A stretch of DNA of 64,000 nt from Octopus vulgaris. Taxonomy: Eukaryota. Within the stretch, counting starts at the first letter, position 1. Every line of letters begins with the position of its first letter. The stretch spans positions 67,952,001 through 68,016,000 of the forward strand of contig OX597816.1 of assembly GCA_951406725.2 (NCBI GenBank), written 5' to 3'. Shown here in pieces: positions 14,168-27,889 of the stretch. The position numbers and the translations under genes were made by a program. The notes under the pieces are model-generated. The model was not told where the DNA came from, did no database searches, and was given only the letters and a program-made list of their open reading frames with translations.

Positions 14168-14690
14168 ATATAAATAATATATAAATATAAGCATATATAC
14201 ATACATATATATGTATATATACATGCATATGTGGGTACAGGACATCAAAAAAACGTTGAACACAATGAGAAACGAAAACATAAATACAAAAACATACAAA
14301 ACAAACTTTTTTTCGAACAACGAAAAAACCAGAGATACGAGACATGCAACATAAAGAATATTCCCCTTCTTCAGTTGTCCCTGTTTCACCTACTTCACGT
14401 TCCATAAGGGGAGGTTATGAGAGGTAATGGTGTCAGTAAGAGCCAAAGGTGTCAGGTAATGCTGAGTATGTGCTATGGATAGACCATAGTTAAGCTCCCG
14501 GTTCGGTGATTATGCGAATAAGAAGTCCAACGCAGTTAATATATCAGCGTGCGTATGTATAATTTTTTTTTTCAGAATGTGATAAAAAAAACAAGGCTGT
14601 GAAGATTTTAGAACACATATAAATGTTCTAAAATCTCTACAGCCTTGGTTTTTTTTTTATCTCATCTTGAAAAAAAAAATTATATACATA
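14160..14690. mobile_element. TA-associated repeat, with a second copy inserted in a SINE at about 1865-2135
   Basis: Shared gggtacaggacatcaaaaaa..gaatattccccttcttcagttgtccctgtttca; short fold-back at 14555-14690. Confidence 0.6.
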
Positions 14691-15097
14691 GGCGCAGGAG
14701 TGGCTGTGTGGTAAGTAGCTTGTTTACCAGCCACATGGTTCCGGGTTCAGTCCCACTGCGTGGCATCTTGGGCAAGTGTCTTCAACTATAGCCTCAGGCC
14801 GACCAAAGCCTTGTGAGTGAATTTGGTAGACGGAAACTGAAAGAAGCCCGTCGTATATATGTACATATATATATATGCGTGCGTGTGTTTGTGTGTCTGT
14901 GTTTGTCCCCCTAGCATTGCTTGACAACCGATGCTGGTGTGTTTATGTCCCCGTTACTTAGCGGTTCGGCAAAAGAGACCGATAGAATAAGTACTAGGCT
15001 TACAAAAGAATAAGTCCCGGAGTCGAGTTGCTCGATTAAAAGGCGGTGCTCCAGCATGGCCGCAGTCAAATGACTGAAACAAGTAAAAGAGTAAAAG
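14691..15097 (+). mobile_element. tRNA-derived SINE family A, full length, with internal TA/TG microsatellite
   Basis: Head GGCGCAGGAGTGGCTGTGTGG (A box)..GGTTCAGTCCC (B box) and tail gactgaaacaagtaaaagagtaaaagag. Other plus copies lie at about 19376-19745, 23405-23680, 30519-30995, 44333-44485, 57415-57885, 61555-62270 and 63705-63945. Confidence 0.88.
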
Positions 15098-15111
15098 AGT
15101 ATATATACATA

Positions 15112-15456
15112 CATTGTTGTGTCTGGAGAGAGTCATTCTCTTTTGGTGCCTTATCATTTAACGCACTCACCGGTAAAATTTCCACTTATTTTTTTTTAGA
15201 TTTATTTAATTTTAATTTTTTTTTCTAAAAGTTTCGTTGCTTCGTGCAACCTTTTCAATAGTCATTGACAGAGTCAAAACCATTGAAAAGGTTGCAAGAC
15301 GCAACGGAAATATTAGAAAAAAAAAGAAATAAGTGGAAATTTTACCGGTGAATGTGTTAAATTATGAGGCACTAAAAGAGAATGGCTCTCCCCAGACACA
15401 ACAGAATATGCTTCAACACACGAATTCACATAAAGAATCATGAAAACCAAATCCCC

Positions 15457-15460
<4 letters not shown>
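15112..15460. mobile_element. Fold-back element with two divergent U3-A8 hammerhead-like motifs (15225-15261 minus, 15280-15316 plus)
   Basis: About 15116-15263 is inverted at about 15278-15402. The motif is CTA-TTGAAAA-G-GTTGC..GCAAC-GAAA..TAG, with a stem I of only 3 bp. Confidence 0.65.
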
Positions 15461-15496
<36 letters not shown>

Positions 15497-15497
<1 letters not shown>

Positions 15498-15681
15498 TTT
15501 ACTCTTTTACTTGCTTCAGTCATTGGACTGCGGCCATGCAGGAGTACCACCTTTAGTCGGACCCCAAGACTTATTCTTTGGAAGCCTAGTACTTATTCTG
15601 TCGGTCACTTTTGCCGAACCGCTAAGTTAGGGGGACGTAAACACACCAGCATCGGTTGTCAAGCGATGTTGGAAGGGATAA

Positions 15682-15714
<33 letters not shown>

Positions 15715-15855
15715 CGACGGGCTTCTTTCAGTTTCCGTCTTTATTCGCCCGAGGGTATAGTAGAAGATATTTGCTCAAGGTACCACGCAGTGGGAATGAA
15801 CCCAGAACCATGTGGTTGGTAAGCAAGCTACATACCACACAGCCACTCCTGCGTC
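15497..15855 (-). mobile_element. SINE family A
   Basis: Colinear with the 58985 copy. Confidence 0.85.
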
Positions 15856-15921
15856 TGATGAACGCTTATATGTAATACTGAATAAGAATGTGAAGTTTTT
15901 CGGTTTAAATATATATATGTG

Positions 15922-15991
<70 letters not shown>

Positions 15992-16075
15992 TGTATGTAT
16001 GTATGTATGTATGTATGTATGCATGTATGTATATATATATATATGTATATTTATATATATATATATGTACATATA

Positions 16076-16113
<38 letters not shown>

Positions 16114-16547
16114 GGTATGTAGAAAAATACAACATGGACAAGAACGTATAACTCTGGGAAGACGATACAATAAACACGGACAGGACATTCGAAACCCTCA
16201 GTCTTCAGTCAAGAACCGGATCATCGTAGTAATTTCGGGTATGTATGTATGTATGTATGCATGTATGTATATATATATATATGTATATATATATATTGAG
16301 CAAGACACTTTATTTCACGTTGCTCCAGTTCACTCAACTGTAGAAATGAGTTGCGACGTCACAGGTGCCAAGCTGTATCGGCCCTTGCCTTTCCCTTGGA
16401 CAACATCGGTGACATGGAGAGGGGAGGCCGGTATGCATGGGCGACTGCTGGTCTTCCATAAAACAACCTTGCCTAGACTTGCGCCTTAGAGGGTAACTCT
16501 CTAGGTGCAAACCCATGGTCAGTGTCTGACCGAAGGGGGTCACCACC

Positions 16548-16578
<31 letters not shown>

Positions 16579-16598
16579 CATATATATATACATACATG

Positions 16599-16658
<60 letters not shown>

Positions 16659-16760
16659 TTAAAATAACTAAGTCTCTCTAAAAGAGAACAGCGGCAGCGT
16701 TCCCGGAAAATAATAGTTATCGCCATACTAATATGGCATTCTTATAATATGGCTGGCTAC

Positions 16761-16802
16761 GCTGCATTGAAAAGGGGCAATACCCCGAAACGCGTCTGTA
16801 GC
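16761..16802 (+). ncRNA. Minimal type I hammerhead with U3-A8 compensated core
   Basis: GCTGCA-TTGAAAA-GGGG-CAATA-CCCC-GAAAC-GC-GTC-TGTAGC; palindromic stem III ACGCGT. Confidence 0.82.
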
Positions 16803-17122
16803 TGCTGGTCAAGTAGTGTGGAGCGACTGACCTCCCTTGTTCGAAGGTTATATGGATACAGTTTGTGTATCAAATAGCTAACTTAAGGCGATGGCCTCAT
16901 GGAGCTAATAAGCGGACAGCTTTTTTCTTATTTTTATAAGAATGCCATATTAGTATGGCGATAACTATTATTTTCCGGGAACGCTGCCGCTGTTCTCTTT
17001 TAGAGAGACTTAGTTATTTTAATATTTCTATTATTGAAAACAAGTGGATGTATTCCACCGAAACTAGGTAAATAAAACCATCGAACAGAGATTGTCGGAA
17101 GCGACACCTACTGGCTGGCTAC

Positions 17123-17164
17123 GCTGCATTGAAAAGGGGCAATACCCCGAAACGCGTCTGTAGC
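17123..17164 (+). ncRNA. Minimal type I hammerhead (tandem copy, U3-A8)
   Basis: Identical to 16761-16802, 362 bp downstream. Confidence 0.82.
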
Positions 17165-17323
17165 TGCCGGTCAAGTAGTGTGGAGCGACTGACCTCCCTT
17201 GTCCGAAGGTTATATGGATACAGTTTGTGTATCAAATAGCTAACTTAAGGCGATGGCCTCATGGAGCTAATAAGCGGACAGCTTTTTTCTTATTTTTATA
17301 AGAATGCCATATTAGTATGGCGA

Positions 17324-17393
<70 letters not shown>

Positions 17394-17408
17394 TATATAT
17401 ACATGCAT

Positions 17409-17477
<69 letters not shown>

Positions 17478-17657
17478 AACCGAAAAAATTTTATTTATAT
17501 ATATATACACACACATGTACATGTATATATATATTTCTAAGCAATAGAAGAGTTGTCTACAGGAAATGGACCGTAGTAAAAGTAAAATAAAACATAATCA
17601 GTTATTTATGACAACAAAGTATTTATAAATAACTCACAAATCTATGTATATTTAATA

Positions 17658-18048
17658 CTAGCAGTATAGCCCGGCGTTGCTCGGGTTTGTTTTGACCCTT
17701 AGAATTTGAATTTTTGAAAACAAAAAATTTTGCATTATGTTGATTGTTATTCTCTTTAAGTGAACATTTTACTGGTTGAAATACACCGGAAAATGGCGAC
17801 ACAGCAGTCAGAACATCGTAAAAAATAGGGATTTTCATAGGAAAAAAAAGGACGTTTTTGATGTAAATAATTTTTGGCGTTAACATGGTCCGATTTGAAT
17901 TTTTTCTTCTACGGAAGGAAGAGCAAGCCTTCTTCTGTCATACTCTCAATTTTGGTCAACTTGCGCCGCAGGGTCTCGGAGGAGATGGTTAGTTGAAGGC
18001 TACCAAACCTGTCACACACAGACAACTTCAGCTTTATATATAGAGAGA
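17658..18048 (-). mobile_element. Non-autonomous Helitron with the same termini and a different interior
   Basis: ctagcagtatagcccggcgttgctcgggtttg end and a related cacagacaacttcagctttatatatagaga end. Confidence 0.72.
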
Positions 18049-18596
18049 TTACACAGAAAACAGGAAGATAGTTCGTAATAGTCCTTCAAAAATAGGGAGA
18101 TATCCAGAGATTAAACACGTGGAAACATAACTAAGTGAAAAACCATTCCTATGGAATCTCTGGATATCTAACCATTCTAGAAGGAATTCTATGGACAATC
18201 TTCTTGCTTTCTGCTTAATTATATTTATATACTTGCGTAACTTTATTTTTAAATGCTTTGGTGCCATAAATAACTGCATGTCCATCGTTTAGTGTGTGTG
18301 TGCGCGCGTGTGTGTGTTTATCTGTCTGTCTGTCTATTTATATCTCAATATATAATAAAAACCAAATGATTCAGACGAAACATTATGCACACGTTTTACG
18401 CGCTCGCGCACTCACGCACGCACACACACACGCGTGTATACATATATATACATGTATGTATATATGTGTGTTTATATGAATATATATATATATATTATAT
18501 ATATTATTATATATATATATATATTATATATATATTATTATTATTATATATATACATATTATCATAAATATATACATATATGTGTATGTATGTATG

Positions 18597-18639
<43 letters not shown>

Positions 18640-18933
18640 GTGTATACATATATATATCTGTGTATATATATATATATATGTACCTATATATATATATATA
18701 TGCATGTATATGTACGTCTACATGTATATACGTGTATATATATGTATATATAGATACATACATATATGTATGTATATATATGCACGCATATATATTTATG
18801 TATGTTTGTATGTATATGTGTATGCATGTATGTATGAATGTATAAATATATTTATATACACATATACATACATGTATATATGCGTGTATGTATATGTGTG
18901 TATATACACTATATATGCATATATATGTGCGTG

Positions 18934-18993
<60 letters not shown>

Positions 18994-19024
18994 TGTGTGT
19001 GTGTATGTGTGTGTGTGTATACGT

Positions 19025-19255
19025 TACTGCACTGTTCGAAAGATTACAGCTGTCCCCATCTTGAGTGAGGATCATGTACTGCAACAGTTTGGGACTCAAG
19101 GGCCCAGTGCTATTTAATACCTAGCCAAAACATTTGAGGGATGTTCATGGAGTGGGGGTAGATGTTTTCAAGAAACGACTTGACTCCTTGCTATCCAAGG
19201 TCCTAGATGAACCAATATCAAGGCAGGGGATTCAAGGAAGAGCAGCAGTGCCTTA
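19025..19255 (+). mobile_element. CR1-like LINE ORF2 3' fragment
   Basis: [45 protein letters not shown]. Confidence 0.7.
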
Positions 19256-19510
19256 TGTGATTGGCACTAGAAGCCAATCACATAACACTGGCCATTGAAA
19301 AGGTTGTTACACTGGCGGTGCACCAGCATGGCCAAAACTTTAGGGCTGAAAGAAGAAAAAGAATAAAAGAATATATAGCTGTGTGGTAAGAAGCTTGCTT
19401 CCCAACCACATGGTTCCGGGTTAACCTTTGGCAAGTGCCTTCTACTAGCCTCGGGCCGACCAAAGCCTTGTGAGTGGATTTGCTAGACGGAAACTGAAAG
19501 AAGCCCGTCG

Positions 19511-19569
<59 letters not shown>

Positions 19570-19758
19570 TTGTACCCCCACCATCGCTTGACAACCGATG
19601 TTGGTATACTTACGTCCCCCGTAACTTAGCGAGTCGGCCAAAGAGACCGATAGAATAAATACTAGCCTTACAAAGAATATGTCCTGGGGGTCGACTAAAG
19701 GCGGTGCTCCAGCATGGCCGTAGTCAAATGACTGAAACAAATATAAAATAAATAACAG

Positions 19759-19850
<92 letters not shown>

Positions 19851-20510
19851 TAATTTGGAGCACTGATACAGGGTTTACCTTTGGCTTCGTTCGGTAGTTA
19901 AGTTTTTTTTTTTACTTCGTAACATTCGAATATACGTTGATATAAAGTTAGAGGGACGTCTATGTATAGATATTATATTTGCATTGCTTAAATTGCTTAA
20001 AACATTGTTATCCGAAGTTTTATAACCATATGTATAAGAGCCATCGACTAACAATAATAATCGTATGTATGTATGTATGTATGTATGTATGTATGTATGT
20101 ATGTATGTATGCAAGTATGCATGTATGTATGTATGTATGTATGTATGTATGTATGTGTGTATGTATGTATGTATGTGCATGTGTGCGTATGTATGTTCGT
20201 GTGTGTGTATATATATATATATATATATTTATAAATACACATATACATATGTTCATATAATGTATATCCACATACACATATATACGTAAATATATAATAA
20301 ATATGTTATACACTTATGTAGATATAAATAACACACACACAAACACACACACACACACACACACACATATTACGAACATGTACTTGCATAGCAAGTGTCC
20401 TGATCTGAGATCGTGTGCTGGAATGAAAACAATTGCTGCGTGGAAGGTGTTTATAAGCCATTTAAGAAACACACAAAAACTGTTAGATTCACTTCAACAT
20501 TTAAATTTAA

Positions 20511-20561
20511 TTTGCCAAAATATTTTCGTCGCTTTGAGACCGCGACCTGTTCGCTGACAAA
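20511..20561 (-). ncRNA. Hammerhead-like motif with G3-C8 swapped core and an extra G
   Basis: TTTGTCA-GCGAACA-G-GTCGC-GGTCTCAAA-GCGAC-GAA-AATATT-T-TGGCAAA. Confidence 0.55.
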
Positions 20562-21874
20562 ATTCCGTGCTGCATATATATTGCACATAAGCATATATAT
20601 ATTTATATACATACACACCCATACATACATACATACATACATACATACATACATACATACATACATACATACATACATTTATACATACATACATACATAC
20701 ATACATACATACATACATACATACATACATACATACATACACACACAATCTGATCGTACAGTTATAGAGGTCGGACACCTAGCAAGTCCTTAATATCTTT
20801 TCAAAATTCAATGACTAGAATATTTATGGGCAGTTGCTTCGAAACGTTCAACTTCTCTATTCTGATTATAAATTTAGATTGATATCGATGAATATTGCCG
20901 CACTTTAGCTATGTAAGAAAAGTTTAAGCGATCCATCATGATACGTTCGATCTTCATTTTCTATAGGATTTTTCTTAATAGCAGTAATCTCGTTGAAATT
21001 TGGTATTAAAATTAATTTTAATTCTTCCATTTAAAAAAGCTTGGATATTCAGGCCAAGAAAGTATTTACCTAACACGCACTTTGTTATCGAAATTCCAGC
21101 TATGAAACTTTTCTGTTTTTTTTTTGTTTTTTTTTTGCTTGAAAGCAACTCCTTTCTTGTGGAAATTCAAATAATGGAAAAGAACGAAAGTGATATACAT
21201 ATATGTACATAAATATATCGATACAAACATATACGCATATCAATAAATACATGAATTTATAAACATACATATAAACCTCAGCAAATAAAATATACTTAGA
21301 TATAGACATACATATACACATGCTTGTGGAGGTGCAATGGCCCAGTGGTTAGGGCAGCGGACTCGCGGTCAGAGGATCGTGGTTTCGATTTCCAGACCGG
21401 ACGTTGTGTGTGTTTATTGAGTGAAAACACCTAAAAGCTCCACGAGGCTTCGGCATGAGGTGGGTGGCGACCCTTGTTGTACTCTTTCGCCCCAACTTTC
21501 TCTCACTCTTTCTTCCTGTTTATTGAGTAACGCGTCCCGTCCAGCTGGGAAACCGGGAAACCGGGCCCACGAGCCTGGCTAGGCTTGAAAAGGGCGCATA
21601 AATAAAATAAAAAATACACATGCTTGCACTCAAACTTTATGCATGGATGCATGCATACATACATACATACATGCATACATACATACATACATACATACAT
21701 ACATACATACATACATACATACATACATACATACATACATACATACATACATACATACATACAGTGCTACACCCGGAAAGCATTGTCCTGAGGGTCATAC
21801 CAAAGGCACATCAGAACCAAAATATATCCGTGTCTTTCAAAATAAAAGAACACCTTTGGAATATTTCGATGGAA

Positions 21875-22348
21875 CTAGGGGATATGGAACTATAAAGCAG
21901 TGGTTCCCAAAAGTGGACAGTATTGCTGTGGAAAGACTCAGGAGGATGTTGAAGAAAAGAGGGGTGATAATAGGGTAGCCGAAATGAGGCAATGGATGTA
22001 CTCCCCAGCTAAATAATGGGTTGATTATGTTAACTTTTATTTATAGTTATTTTGAATTTGCTGCAGAAAGCGGTCTATGTTCGTGGTGGCGAGTTTGGTG
22101 TGTGTGAAGGGGGATGCTGGGGATGTGGCCTGGGTGTCACATACTCTAATCGCACAGTAACAGAGGTCGGCCATCCAGCAAGTTCTTAATATCCTTTCAA
22201 AATTCAATGACTAAAATATTTATGAGCAGTTCAACTTCTTTATTCTGATTATAAATTTAGATTTATATCGATGAATATTGTTGCACTTTAGGGGGCGGCA
22301 GCCCGAAAAGGTTTGGGAACCACTGCTTTATAGCTTCATATCCCCTAG
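21875..22348. mobile_element. hAT-like MITE with 37-bp inverted ends and an interior duplicated from nearby
   Basis: CTAGGGGATATG(GAA/AAG)CTATAAAGCAGTGGTTCCCAAA at both ends, inverted. Confidence 0.75.
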
Positions 22349-22865
22349 ATCAGCGGCTAGTAGAATGTAAATTTCTCGTCAAAACTTCAAGAAAAGGAAA
22401 ACATCCGTGGAGAACTAAGGAGAAAAAATACTGGTTTCAAAGTCAGGCTGTAGATTTTCATCCGTACCTCTTGTCTTAGGTGCAATGGACTATGGTAACA
22501 ATAAATTTGTAGAAAAGCTAAATAGTTCTCGGCTTCGTGCAGAATGAACAAGACAAAATGATTCGCATATGTCAAATATAGTCGACTAGTGGGTCAGTGA
22601 ACACATCTGAAACATTCTAAGGATTCTCCCTTTGAGGTTCTAGGACCGAAGACATACGTACAAAGACAGGTACATATGGAACAGTCTCCCCGTCCTCACA
22701 TATATACACTTCTGTATCAAAGTGATAAGCTCACCCACTACATGAATGTGTACATACATAATATATACATACATACATACATACATACATACATACATAC
22801 ATACATACATACATACATACATACATACTTACATATACATAAGAGAACAAGGTGTACGTACGCTG

Positions 22866-22918
<53 letters not shown>

Positions 22919-24430
22919 AATACAAATGGGACAAGAACGCAAAACATTCAAATAGACGATACAAAAAACACGGACGCGTTATTCGAAGCCTCTAATCTTC
23001 AGTCAAGAACCAGATCATCCTCGCAATTTCGGCTGATTAATCTTGAGATTGCTCCAATCTGGCCAGCCCCAAGGAAAAACTATACATATATATATACATA
23101 CATACATACATACATACATACATACATACATACATACATACATACATGCATACATGCATACATACATACATATATATATATATGTATGCATACATACATA
23201 TATACATACATATATACATACATACATATATGTATGCATACTTACATACATACATACACACACATACCTGTATATGTATACATATATGCATACATACATG
23301 CACATACAAACATGTATACTTTATAATCATGTATTGAGTTATTTCGCCTGTTCTATCAAACCTATATACATGTATTCATACACACACACACACAAACACA
23401 CACGTGAATTTGATAGACGGAAACTGTGTGGAAGTCCGTAGTATATGTGTGTGTGTGCAAAGTGTGTATGTGGTGTGTGTGTCTTTGTTATTGTGTTTGT
23501 ACTCTCACCGCTTGACTACTCATGCTGGTTTGCTTATCTTCTCGTTTCTAGCGATTCGACAAAAGTGATCGATAAAATAAGTGCCAGGCTTAAAAATTAA
23601 GTACTGGGGCCAATTTATTCGACTGAACCCTTTAAGGTTGTGTCTCGACATGACTTCAGCTCAATAATACAAACAAGTAAAACACAAACATGTACACGCT
23701 AACTCACATATTCACAAAAACCGCGATACGGTTTTTGACTCAAAGCCGTGGGTCACTTTGTTAGTGGTCAGTTTTATTTTTGCGATGGACTTAAGTACAT
23801 CTCAAAGAAAATCTACACATACACTTACAAACAAACACATTACAGGAGGTTTTCAGGCAAATACACAATTCCTCCCCGATGTAATTTAAATTCCTGCATT
23901 ATGTCTTTATATCATTAAAAAAAAAAACCGGCACCTTTTTATATATATGAAGGGATCACGGATGTGTGACGAAAGATTTCCGGACAACGGACGTTAGATA
24001 AAGTAAGAACAATAATAAACGAGTGCAGAACAAATATATAGTGTGTGTTTTTATTTAGCAAAAAAGGAAAAGAAAAAAGAAAAGAATTACAATCCCGAAA
24101 ATAACAATATCTATTTCAACACACGGTTCCACATTAGGAATCTTGGTACGCAAATTCATAAACATGTGTGTGTGTATACATTTACATACACGCATACATA
24201 CATGTACGCATATACATATATATATTTGTGTTGTGTATATACATACATGAATATACAGACACGCTCACACATACACATGTACATATATATTTATGTATGT
24301 ATAAATATGTGCGCGTGTGTATGTATACATGTGTGCATATATGCATGTGTATGTATATGTGTGTGTGTATATATATATATATATTATATGCATGTATATA
24401 TACATATATATGTATATCAATGAGTGAGCG

Positions 24431-24476
<46 letters not shown>

Positions 24477-24595
24477 CCTCATATATCGTTCACGACGAGG
24501 GAATCCGTCATACACACACTCACACACACACACTCACACACACACACACACATATATATCTATAATATATCTATATATATATATATATAATATAT

Positions 24596-24687
<92 letters not shown>

Positions 24688-24940
24688 ATTTGTATATATA
24701 TACTATTTGTTGTAAGGTCATTTATTTTCATGAGGTAATTCACCTTTGATAAATTTTGTTTTTTTATCATGCAAAAACCGTCTAAAAACTCAACTTTCTC
24801 ATCAAGGACGGTTGGTGGGGTTGCCTGTTTAGTCATCGTCAACCCGACCATGCGCGGGTGCCACTGGCCTACACGGTTAAAAATATCTAGTCTAATATCA
24901 TCAGATCCCTTGCTCGACATATTAATGTGTATGTGTATTA

Positions 24941-25001
<61 letters not shown>

Positions 25002-25181
25002 GTATGTATATGTGTGTATATATATATAAGTATATATCAGCAATAATAATAATAATAATAATAATCATAATAATAATAAAGATTATTACCATCAAAGGAC
25101 ATGCTATGTAAGAATGTATGCATATATGTACGTATATACAGCTTCAAATAGACTTACATATGTTTCAAATGCATCTATTAG

Positions 25182-25588
<407 letters not shown>

Positions 25589-25640
25589 TGTTTGTTTGTT
25601 TTCCACCTGCCTTCGTCTTTTGTCTATTTTCATAAAGCTT

Positions 25641-25677
<37 letters not shown>

Positions 25678-25681
25678 TATA

Positions 25682-26052
25682 CAGGGTGATTCAAAAGTCT
25701 CTATACATAGGAAAAAATTATTTTTTTCTAAGAAACAGTTTATAAGATCCCCTGGATCCCCTGATCTGACCCCCTCTTAATTTCTATCTTTGGGGGCATT
25801 TGAAGGGCATGGTGTATCGCGGAAAGATAAAAGACATAAATCATTTGAAGGAACGCATCACCAACTCATTTGCACACGTATCACCAGATGTGCTATTACG
25901 AGTTCACAATGAGTGGGGTAAACGTATTGCAATGAGTAGTCAAAATAATTGTAACCATATAGAGCCTGTTCAGTTAAAAAAAAACTTCTTATAAACTGTT
26001 TCTTATAAAAAGATAGATTGTTCCTATGTACGGCGACTTTTGAATAATCTTG
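25682..26052 (+). mobile_element. Tc1/mariner-superfamily deletion derivative with about 65-bp TIRs
   Basis: TA|CAGGGTGATTCAAAAGTC...GACTTTTGAATAATCTTG|TA; internal SPDLTPS*FLSLG/FYLWGHLKGMVY transposase remnant. Confidence 0.85.
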
Positions 26053-27090
26053 TATATTTATATACATACATACAAATTTATATATGTTGGTCGTCAACAC
26101 AATTTCGAGCACAACCACTTTCTCATTGCAGTCATATCCCTGTAACACTTGATAAGCTAACTGTGATCTGTTTGAATTTTTTTTTTGTGTGAGAAATGCA
26201 ACATAATTTGGTAGTTTGGTCAAAAATCACACAAAACGAATGTCCGTTCTTGTGCATTCGCCCAAAAGGAATTTTCAGCTCTGCAGTAGACAAGCACGTC
26301 CTTGGACGTGAAGTTTAGCAGTGCTCCGTATGTAGCGTTGGAGCTGTAAGCCTCTCTCGTTTTCCGATTTGTGATTTTTCATAGGTGCTTAGTCCCTCTT
26401 TTGAAAGTATAATTCGACCATAGATTACTCAGGATATATATGCGTGCATGCATACATACATACATAAATACATACATACATACATACATACATACATACA
26501 TACATACATACATACATACATACATACATACATACATACATGTGGAGGAGCGTGTCTTAGTGGTTAAGATTTTGAGTTCATGTTTGTAAGATTCTAGTTT
26601 CGATTCCTGGAACGGGCGATGCATTGTGTTCTCGAGTAAAACACTTCTTTCATTTCTCGTTGCTCCAGTTCACTCAGTTGGCAAAAATGAGTAATACTGT
26701 GATGGACCAGCGTCCTATCCAGGGGTGGGATATATACACCACCTGAATCTGGAAACCGGCAGTAGGAATCTATGGCTCAACTAGGAGTCTGATCCTTTTT
26801 TGATATACATACACACGTGTACGCAGTGAAAAATGAAAGGTAATGCATACACACACACACATGCACAAACACACACACAGACATACACACGCACACATCT
26901 TTATATATACATGCATGTCTACAAAACATACATTCACACATACACAAACATGCGTACAAAATATACATACATGCCCACTAAATTAGAAATGCGCGTATAC
27001 ATGTTCAAAATATGGAATACTGGTGAAGCATTGCCATAAAAAAAAAAGCATGACATTGGTAAAAACAACAGGCCAGATATTATTCTAAGA

Positions 27091-27277
27091 CAGTGCTTCG
27101 CAACCGGTATGCCGCGGCACACTGGTGTGCCACGAGACGCTGCTAGGTGTGCTGTAGTGTAACTCGAATAAATTTTTTTCCCCCGATACTTTTAGTTATG
27201 TTTTTAGTTCTGATCTACCGCCGAATGTTGAAAAGAATATAAGCGTACCGCAAGTGGAAAAAGATTGCAGAGCGCCG
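27091..27277. mobile_element. Old hAT-like MITE
   Basis: cagtgcttcgcaaccggtatgccgcggcacactggtgtgcc...gattgcagagcgccg; degenerate TIRs. Confidence 0.5.
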
Positions 27278-27889
27278 TTCTAGGGGATCGGGAGCAAAGG
27301 TCATGCAGTCTTATAAGGATCTGCTAATGAGGAACTTACAACTCTTATATCTAAGCTATAGTTTTCTATTTGTTCTTATTATCATAAATGCATAACATAT
27401 TTGCATAAAAATGCTGGAGTTCTAGAAGAAAGAGCAAAGCAAACTGATTCATATCTCCCAAACACAGTCGATTAGAGGTACAGTAAAACATCTGCAAGAC
27501 ATTTCATTTGTTCTCCCTTTGAAGTTTATGAATTGGACATATTGCATATGACATAAACACACAGAAACAGTGTTGAAACACACACACATGTGTATTAACG
27601 TGATGTGCACAACCTCTGTACGAGTGTAAGGTTATTCACAAACTAAGTAACTCATTCATAAATCCACAAACTCCAGGAGTTGTCTTGACATATACAAAAG
27701 AGCTTTATCACTTCGTGAAGTGACCGGTTTCGGGTGTGCAAAAAGCAAACCATAAATATATCTCCAAAGACACACGCACATACATTCACACATACATATT
27801 TAAATACATACATGCATAATATACCGCATGCATACCTGCCTACATACATACATACATACATACATACATACATACATACATACATGCGC

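What the first reader, a model, noticed from the sequence alone, without database searches (positions are those of the whole stretch)
16652..17328. 362-bp tandem element with twin U3-A8 minimal hammerheads inside the homeobox gene intron
Seen: two identical 42-nt HHRs 362 bp apart with self-complementary stem III (ACGCGT), a 5' inverted arm and TA flanks. Established: minimal HHRs with palindromic stem III cleave as dimers. Inference: the tandem pair on one transcript provides the dimer partner and would excise a 362-nt RNA. It is antisense to the host gene.
Basis: partly seen in the sequence, partly recalled or inferred. Interest (0 to 1): 0.72.

Follow-up and report, generated by a model that had tools for sequence, protein, structure and literature searches.

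The report
Octopus hammerhead retrozyme, two-armed Penelope-style insertion
This is one of several hundred near-identical copies of a 362-base non-coding repeat that carries a predicted self-cutting RNA motif and sits in TA microsatellites, here inside a homeobox-gene intron; its two back-to-back arms end at two fixed sites, so it is likely a "retrozyme" copied by a Penelope-type jumping-gene enzyme, probably from an RNA circle, a known kind of element whose cutting and circle are untested here.

Summary
The insert is a 98-nt inverted arm plus 1.6 copies of a 362-nt unit, between (TA)n tracts in intron 1 of a PRD-class homeobox gene, antisense to it. It belongs to a young dispersed family (1,125 hammerhead matches genome-wide, 0 in the control). 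The ribozyme is a canonical type I fold with a U3-A8 core, not a minimal one. Subfamilies keep its stems and palindrome by compensatory changes, and 16750-17200 is predicted to fold as a double hammerhead. In 50 of 51 two-armed loci, one arm ends at unit position ~175 and the other at ~238. The arms share a haplotype, join by microhomology and read through the cut site 174 times. This fits twin priming by a Penelope enzyme on one continuous RNA, probably a circle; an uncut multimer is not excluded. A young Neptune-like element with the same U3-A8 core is the best partner candidate, but it shares no DNA homology with the unit. Cleavage and circles are unshown, and the inverted arm may block folding at this locus. 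It is a new member of the known non-LTR retrozymes. The scan noted the same two-arm pattern earlier in other families.

The parts
16548..16652 (.). left (TA)n-rich target tract
16650..16747 (-). inverted arm: unit positions 138-235, outer (3') end at site S2
   Evidence: 100% reverse complement of 16934-17031; arm parsing
16748..16749 (.). 2-nt filler between the two arms
16750..17330 (+). main arm, 581 nt = 1.6 units (unit positions 316-362, 1-362, 1-172), outer (3') end at site S1
16751..16810 (+). type I hammerhead 1: extended helix I with UAC bulge, U3-A8 core 16767-16773, helix II 16774-16786, palindrome 16790-16795, predicted cut after C16796
17113..17172 (+). type I hammerhead 2, predicted cut after C17158
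16797..17158 (+). predicted 362-nt monomer or circle; non-coding (longest stop-free stretch 55 codons)
   Evidence: (circular MFE -119 kcal/mol, z -5.5; antisense z -5.4)
16966..16975 (+). site S1 (unit ~170-179): family-wide 3' end, inferred RT start site
17029..17035 (+). site S2 (unit ~233-239): second family-wide 3' end, inferred RT start site; S1-S2 is the ~63-nt 'tail'
17328..17474 (.). right (TA)n-rich target tract
10978..28794 (-). intron 1 of the host PRD-class homeobox gene, which holds the element

Best explanation
This is a young insertion of a non-coding 362-nt hammerhead repeat family (a non-LTR retrozyme) that was likely pasted into a (TA)n tract by the RT-endonuclease of a Penelope-like element, probably using a circular monomer RNA as template. 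SHOWN: family size and youth; two fixed 3' ends, one per arm; shared haplotype of the arms; microhomology at the arm joint; read-through of the cut site; compensatory changes in the ribozyme. PREDICTED: tandem copies on one transcript pair their ACGCGU palindromes into a double hammerhead, cut after each C17 and release a 362-nt RNA. INFERRED from other retrozymes: that RNA is ligated into a circle. INFERRED: the Penelope enzyme nicks both strands of (TA)n; one DNA end starts reverse transcription at S1 and the other at S2 on the same RNA; both run on past the cut site for up to 7.5 units; the two cDNA ends then join head to head. The likeliest enzyme donor (about even odds) is the young Neptune-like element with the same U3-A8 core. 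The intronic antisense position is probably incidental.
For: 1,125 hammerhead matches vs 0 control; copies 96-100% identical. Of 142 arms in 78 loci, 129 end at S1 or S2, and 113 of those 129 run into (TA)n. 50 of 51 two-armed loci have one S1 and one S2 end, p=2e-14; subfamily B shows the same in 11 loci read by eye. Minor alleles are shared by opposite arms in 109 of 124 comparisons, within an arm in 210 of 249, between loci in 1,191 of 11,153. Arm joints overlap by 4 nt or more in 24 of 58 vs 2% for random joins. Arms cross the cut site 174 times and stop at positions 1-4 only 6 times; both arms cross it in 20 of 51 loci; the longest arm is 2,737 nt. In 3 loci each arm holds sequence the other lacks, so neither is a fold-back copy of the other. 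Across subfamilies (A vs B 300 of 367 columns identical, both 362 nt) stems covary, ACGCGT changes to ACATGT, and N7 varies freely. The double-hammerhead fold is the MFE of 16750-17200. An intact 781-aa RT + GIY-YIG element (95-100% identical among 9 copies) ends in (TA)n, has a U3-A8 core with ACATGT, and has a ~40-nt tail that is absent from the second arm in 4 of 4 two-armed loci seen. Literature: tail at one end and inverted 5' copy are PLE hallmarks (PMC8557442); two RT start sites bounding the tail were shown in vitro (PMC11167929).
Against: No cleavage, RNA end or circle was shown. PMC11167929 found hammerhead mutants did not impair insertion in vitro and unprocessed RNA was the main template, which favours an uncut linear multimer. 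Only 1 of 9 Xenopus retrozyme dimers cleaved in vitro (bioRxiv 10.64898/2026.07.22.740005), and a U3-A8 core may be slow. A transcript of an already homogeneous array would also give arms of one haplotype. The unit has no significant DNA similarity to the Neptune-like element (325 of 500 shuffles scored as high) or to a second very young PLE family (no hit at E<1), so the partner is not pinned down. At this locus the inverted arm abolishes the predicted dimer fold in a nested-only model. Only 20 of 52 census loci have two or more hammerheads on one strand. The covariation set is small (11 distinct, related rows), and pairs changed on both sides were not above shuffles (101 of 500).
Confidence: 0.65

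Rival explanations
1. Same element and same Penelope mobilisation, but the template is an uncut linear multimer read from tandem genomic copies; the hammerhead is slow or cuts only at a later step, and no circle is needed.
For: PMC11167929: hammerhead cleavage was dispensable for insertion in vitro, and no RNA-seq ends were found at the cut site. Read-through of the cut site and shared haplotypes are equally expected. 8 of 9 Xenopus dimers did not cleave (bioRxiv 10.64898/2026.07.22.740005).
Against: Only 6 of 52 census loci have three or more hammerheads on one strand, yet multi-unit arms occur on many different haplotypes, so each would need its own long donor. The two repeated junction pairs among 51 differ in haplotype or arm lengths, so they do not look inherited from a donor locus. 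Stems and palindrome are maintained by compensation.
Confidence: 0.25
2. The unit is a detached terminal repeat (pLTR) of an autonomous PLE that was not sampled, so these are truncated PLE copies rather than an independent non-autonomous element.
For: Xenopus retrozymes are homologous to PLE pLTRs (bioRxiv 10.64898/2026.07.22.740005). Only 150 of 6,136 GIY-YIG candidates were scored.
Against: Units are joined head to tail with no ORF between them. PLE sequence near the copies was a separate insertion in the cases looked at (L079, L157, L167).
Confidence: 0.07
3. A locus-specific antisense ribozyme or circular RNA that regulates the homeobox gene.
For: It lies antisense in intron 1.
Against: It is one of several hundred ~99% identical dispersed copies. 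Position follows a (TA)n tract. A sense host pre-mRNA carries only the inactive complement. The inverted arm is predicted to hinder folding.
Confidence: 0.03

Closest known systems
Metazoan non-LTR retrozymes (coral, mussel Mytilus galloprovincialis 350-390 bp, axolotl 330/350 bp; PMC7229834, read parts 2-4 of 6, supplement not readable)
   Same: Non-coding tandem unit of a few hundred bases, one type I hammerhead per unit, weak palindromic helix III that needs a dimer (as axolotl HHR_Amex1), GC under 50%, highly paired predicted circle.
   Different: U3-A8 core; short dispersed two-armed insertions with fixed ends in (TA)n; expression as circles not shown here.
Vertebrate retrozymes as non-autonomous PLE derivatives (bioRxiv 10.64898/2026.07.22.740005, read parts 1-3 of 5, supplements closed)
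   Same: Co-occurs with intact PLEs; ~360-nt unit; often intronic.
   Different: That link rests on pLTR homology and co-occurrence. Here no pLTR homology was found, and the link rests on insertion anatomy and a shared core variant.
EN+ Penelope-like elements (Neptune/Naiad/Poseidon) with inverted 5' copy and one-sided tail (PMC8557442 passages; PMC11167929 parts 1-2 of 4)
   Same: (TA)n targets, partial tandems, inverted 5'-truncated copy, tail at one end only, two RT start sites.
   Different: No ORF; tail about 63 nt rather than 30-40; both start sites end in a TAT-like stretch that matches the target, whereas the anole enzyme started without homology.
U3-A8 minimal hammerheads of Schistosoma mansoni Cercyon PLEs (PMC4209133, read parts 1-2 of 4)
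   Same: U3-A8 in place of C3-G8; dimer-dependent.
   Different: Those are minimal motifs, mostly single. This one has canonical helix lengths and a bulged helix I extension, and sits in a tandem non-coding unit.

Membership tests
Non-LTR retrozyme | Tandem unit of about 150-450 bp with one type I hammerhead per unit | tested here: met
   362-nt unit, up to 8 hammerheads on one strand
Non-LTR retrozyme | Non-coding, no LTR architecture | tested here: met
   longest stop-free stretch 55 codons; ends join (TA)n; PBS/PPT not searched separately
Non-LTR retrozyme | Dispersed multicopy family | tested here: met
   1,125 matches vs 0 control; copies on many chromosomes
Non-LTR retrozyme | Highly self-paired predicted circle | tested here: met
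   -119 kcal/mol, z -5.5 vs 60 shuffles; antisense equally stable
Non-LTR retrozyme | Self-cleavage of the transcript | not testable with these tools
   fold prediction and covariation only
Non-LTR retrozyme | Expressed as linear and circular monomers | tested here: inconclusive
   only assembled contigs could be laid, and these cannot tell a circle from a tandem
Canonical type I hammerhead | Helix I 6 bp, helix II 4 bp, short palindromic helix III, extended bulged helix I | tested here: met
   the loop-bulge contact itself is inferred
Canonical type I hammerhead | C3-G8 core | tested here: not met
   U3-A8 in all 12 aligned copies; pairing kept; variant known from PMC4209133; no Rfam hammerhead hit even at E<=10
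PLE minimal hammerhead (min-HHR) | Long helix II (7-8 bp), short helix I (4-5 bp), poorly defined loop 1 | tested here: not met
   helix II 4 bp; helix I 6 bp plus 7-bp extension
PLE-mobilised element | Inverted 5' copy, tail at one end only, microsatellite target | tested here: met
   51 of 78 loci two-armed, 50 with one end of each kind
PLE-mobilised element | Sequence homology to the pLTR of an autonomous PLE | tested here: not met
   none with the two young PLE families or the older copies held; PLE sampling incomplete
Autonomous PLE | RT + GIY-YIG ORF | tested here: not met
   no ORF in the unit

The most novel reading that the evidence does not exclude
A U3-A8 hammerhead circle, invisible to standard hammerhead searches, is copied by one Penelope enzyme complex from both cut DNA ends at once, one end per fixed start site, rolling round the same circle in parallel. 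The family would then be a genomic record, and a 362-nt test substrate, that explains how Penelope elements make their tandem and inverted insertions and how a retrozyme with no sequence homology hijacks them.
Probability: 0.4. Interest if true: 0.7.

Novelty: new member of a known kind. Interest (0 to 1): 0.42.

Why it matters
How animal retrozymes move, and how Penelope elements build their tandem/inverted insertions, are still open: PMC7229834 proposes PLE mobilisation of circles, and PMC8557442 calls for an in vitro system. This family gives countable evidence (one start site per arm, one haplotype per insertion, microhomology joins) together with intact young candidate enzymes in the same genome, so the question is directly testable with a 362-nt RNA. 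It also shows that searches built on the CUGANGA core or on Rfam miss whole families: a generic U3-A8 pattern matches 4,875 times vs 487 control. The class and the main hallmarks are already known, and the homeobox location adds little.

Tried and rejected
RNA evidence: no RNA holder listed (20 holders, none on record as RNA, all contigs). Laying 4 guessed-RNA runs and 4 more runs showed no molecule ends. A contig closing on itself after 362 nt appears in guessed-RNA run X1, but also in X17, which also covers the neighbouring unrelated repeats and so looks like DNA; I do not count it as a circle. Presence or absence of this exact insertion in other individuals could not be read because contigs break at the microsatellites. 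Genomic trace of cleavage: arm 5' stops are about 12-fold more frequent per base just 3' of the cut (positions 1-19, 13 stops) than just 5' of it (343-362, 1 stop), p=0.002. But the bins were chosen after looking, the larger peak is at 32-56 around a TTCGAA palindrome, and joints are biased by microhomology, so this is a weak hint only. Rfam: no hit at gathering level in the window; no hammerhead at E<=10. Canonical C3-G8 hammerheads with ACGCGT (51 matches vs 13 control): of the 30 loci fetched, only L091 held the unit, as a neighbouring family copy. Pol III transcription of the monomer is unlikely: T6 and T5 runs at unit 125 and 135. Fold-back copying of one arm from the other fails in 3 loci. 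Not-in-print searches found no paper describing an octopus retrozyme, a U3-A8 retrozyme or a one-site-per-arm count; the library lacks most subscription papers, and the supplements of PMC7229834 and of the bioRxiv preprint could not be seen and may list cephalopod families.

Full report
Observation. The finding is in the sequence as described. A 98-nt arm (16650-16747) is the exact reverse complement of 16934-17031. After a 2-nt filler, a 581-nt arm (16750-17330) holds 1.6 copies of a 362-nt unit, and (TA)n tracts flank both ends. The two 42-nt hammerhead motifs are identical, with C17 at 16796 and 17158. The host gene is a PRD-class homeobox gene whose exons match protein P0001, named for Octopus vulgaris by its source. 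The exons lie on the minus strand at 28819-28795, 10977-10836, 1355-1232 and 939-867. The element is thus in intron 1, with the ribozyme strand antisense.

The ribozyme. Helix I is 6 bp and continues past a UAC bulge for 7 more pairs. Helix II is 4 bp with a CAAUA loop, and helix III is the palindrome ACGCGU. By the definitions in PMC4209133 this is the canonical type I architecture, not the minimal one. The core has U3-A8 for C3-G8, a swap that paper reports for Schistosoma PLE motifs. That such a pair keeps partial activity is recalled, not tested; PMC11167929 shows partial rescue for the G3-C8 swap. Rfam does not see the motif. In 12 aligned copies from several subfamilies (11 distinct), 13 cells show changes on both sides of a pair (0 of 500 shuffles reach this). 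The palindrome switches between ACGCGT and ACATGT, and N7 is A, C or U. The number of covarying pairs (5) is not above shuffles (101 of 500), and the rows are related.

Folding. A single copy does not form helix III. The 16750-17200 transcript folds as a double hammerhead at 0.83-0.99 pair probability. This falls to about 0.5 for 16750-17330 and to 0.0 when the inverted arm is included; the model cannot represent pseudoknots, so the last figure is a caution, not a proof.

The family. The strict pattern matches 1,125 times (control 0). At about 1.9 matches per locus on contig C1 (87 matches, 45 loci), that suggests roughly 600 loci, a lower bound. Copies are 96-100% identical. An older subfamily B is 82% identical, also 362 nt, with 2,724 first-look candidates. 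I parsed 78 loci: 52 from the first 100 pattern matches (duplicates merged, one non-member dropped) and 26 full-unit loci (4 duplicates dropped).

Insertion anatomy. Of 142 arms, 129 end at unit position 165-182 (S1) or 228-240 (S2), counted from the cut, and 13 end elsewhere. 113 of the 129 run into TA repeats. In 51 loci two such arms sit back to back, and in 50 of them one arm ends at S1 and the other at S2 (p=2e-14). The exception, L007, has flanks that are inverted copies of each other. The window's copy follows the rule. Subfamily B does too in 11 loci read by eye (two may be one duplicated insertion; 4 others have a non-standard end; the set was selected for S2 ends). Opposite arms share minor alleles in 109 of 124 comparisons, against 1,191 of 11,153 between loci. 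The joints overlap by 4 nt or more in 24 of 58 cases, against 2% by chance. Arms pass the cut site 174 times and stop at positions 1-4 six times; 80 of 129 exceed one unit, and the longest is 2,737 nt.

Mechanism. These features are the PLE signature. PMC8557442 describes partial tandems, an inverted 5' copy, a tail at only one end and (TA)n targets. PMC11167929 shows in vitro that a PLE protein cuts and extends both strands and starts at two internal sites that bound the tail. I infer twin priming on one RNA, one DNA end per site, followed by microhomology joining. The template must be continuous across the cut site: a ligated circle, as proposed in PMC4209133 and PMC7229834, or an uncut multimer. 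I favour the circle because long arrays are rare (6 of 52 census loci have three or more hammerheads on a strand) while multi-unit arms occur on many haplotypes. The in vitro finding that cleavage is dispensable, and the 1-in-9 cleavage rate of Xenopus dimers, keep the linear reading alive.

Partner. The genome holds a young PLE with a 781-aa RT + GIY-YIG frame and a C-x4-C-x2-C linker, which is Neptune/Nematis-like by the description in PMC8557442; no tree was built. Nine copies are 95-100% identical. It ends in (TA)n and carries a U3-A8 core with ACATGT, the same core and palindrome as subfamily B. Its ~40-nt tail ends in a TATTAT stretch like S1 and S2; 4 of 30 tailed loci had a second arm within 1.5 kb, and all four lacked the tail. 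A second, very young PLE family (40 of 40 scored copies ~100% identical) has a U3-G8 core. Neither shows significant DNA similarity to the unit, so the partner is a candidate only.

Expression. Nothing here shows transcription, cleavage or a circle; the sequencing runs available were uninformative (see Tried and rejected). Long T runs argue against a Pol III monomer transcript, so source loci probably depend on read-through. Here that would have to be antisense to the host gene and would include the inverted arm.

Comparison and verdict. It works like, and meets the testable criteria of, a metazoan non-LTR retrozyme. It fails the tests for a minimal hammerhead, for the C3-G8 core and for pLTR homology. 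My searches found no description of this family; unseen supplements may bear on that. After I had formed this reading, the scan's own notes showed the same two-arm, two-end pattern in other retrozyme families of this and related genomes (unchecked AI notes, not support). No note matched this sequence. Verdict: a real, young, well-behaved new member of a known class, useful as a test case for Penelope mechanism. Interest 0.42.

Noticed in passing
L113:287-3684 (also L111-L119): Young autonomous PLE with an upstream open frame of about 330-420 codons (no Pfam hit) that overlaps the 781-aa RT-GIY-YIG frame in most copies; a T-run lies in the overlap, a possible programmed frameshift. Long 3' UTR with internal repeats.
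   Followed up: partly
L224-L233: Second very young PLE family (~100% identical copies, 3,070 candidates) with proline-rich ends on a ~960-1,040-codon frame and a hammerhead-like motif with a U3-G8 core and ACGT palindrome near its (TA)n end.
   Followed up: partly
G000 genome-wide: A generic U3-A8 hammerhead pattern matches 4,875 times vs 487 control, including a further small family on C1 (21166763, 21302248, 22161163) that I did not examine.
   Followed up: no
L161, L045, L183, L185, L190: Family haplotypes look like mosaics of two variant sets, suggesting template switching or recombination between RNA variants.
   Followed up: no
L055-L058: An insertion flanked by a direct duplication of at least 30 bases, a candidate long target-site duplication.
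   Followed up: no
L008/L123 and L091/L122: Subfamily A copies sit directly beside subfamily B-like sequence, suggesting repeated insertion into the same tract or chimeras.
   Followed up: no
window 55557-55994: A 145-codon open stretch on the + strand that reads like a mariner-type transposase C-terminus (recognised from memory, not searched).
   Followed up: no
window 47966-48760: Fragments that read like the 3' part of a LINE reverse transcriptase (recognised from memory, not searched).
   Followed up: no
window 50159-51544 and 61172-62218: Local duplications of several hundred bases seen as repeated translations in the ORF list.
   Followed up: no
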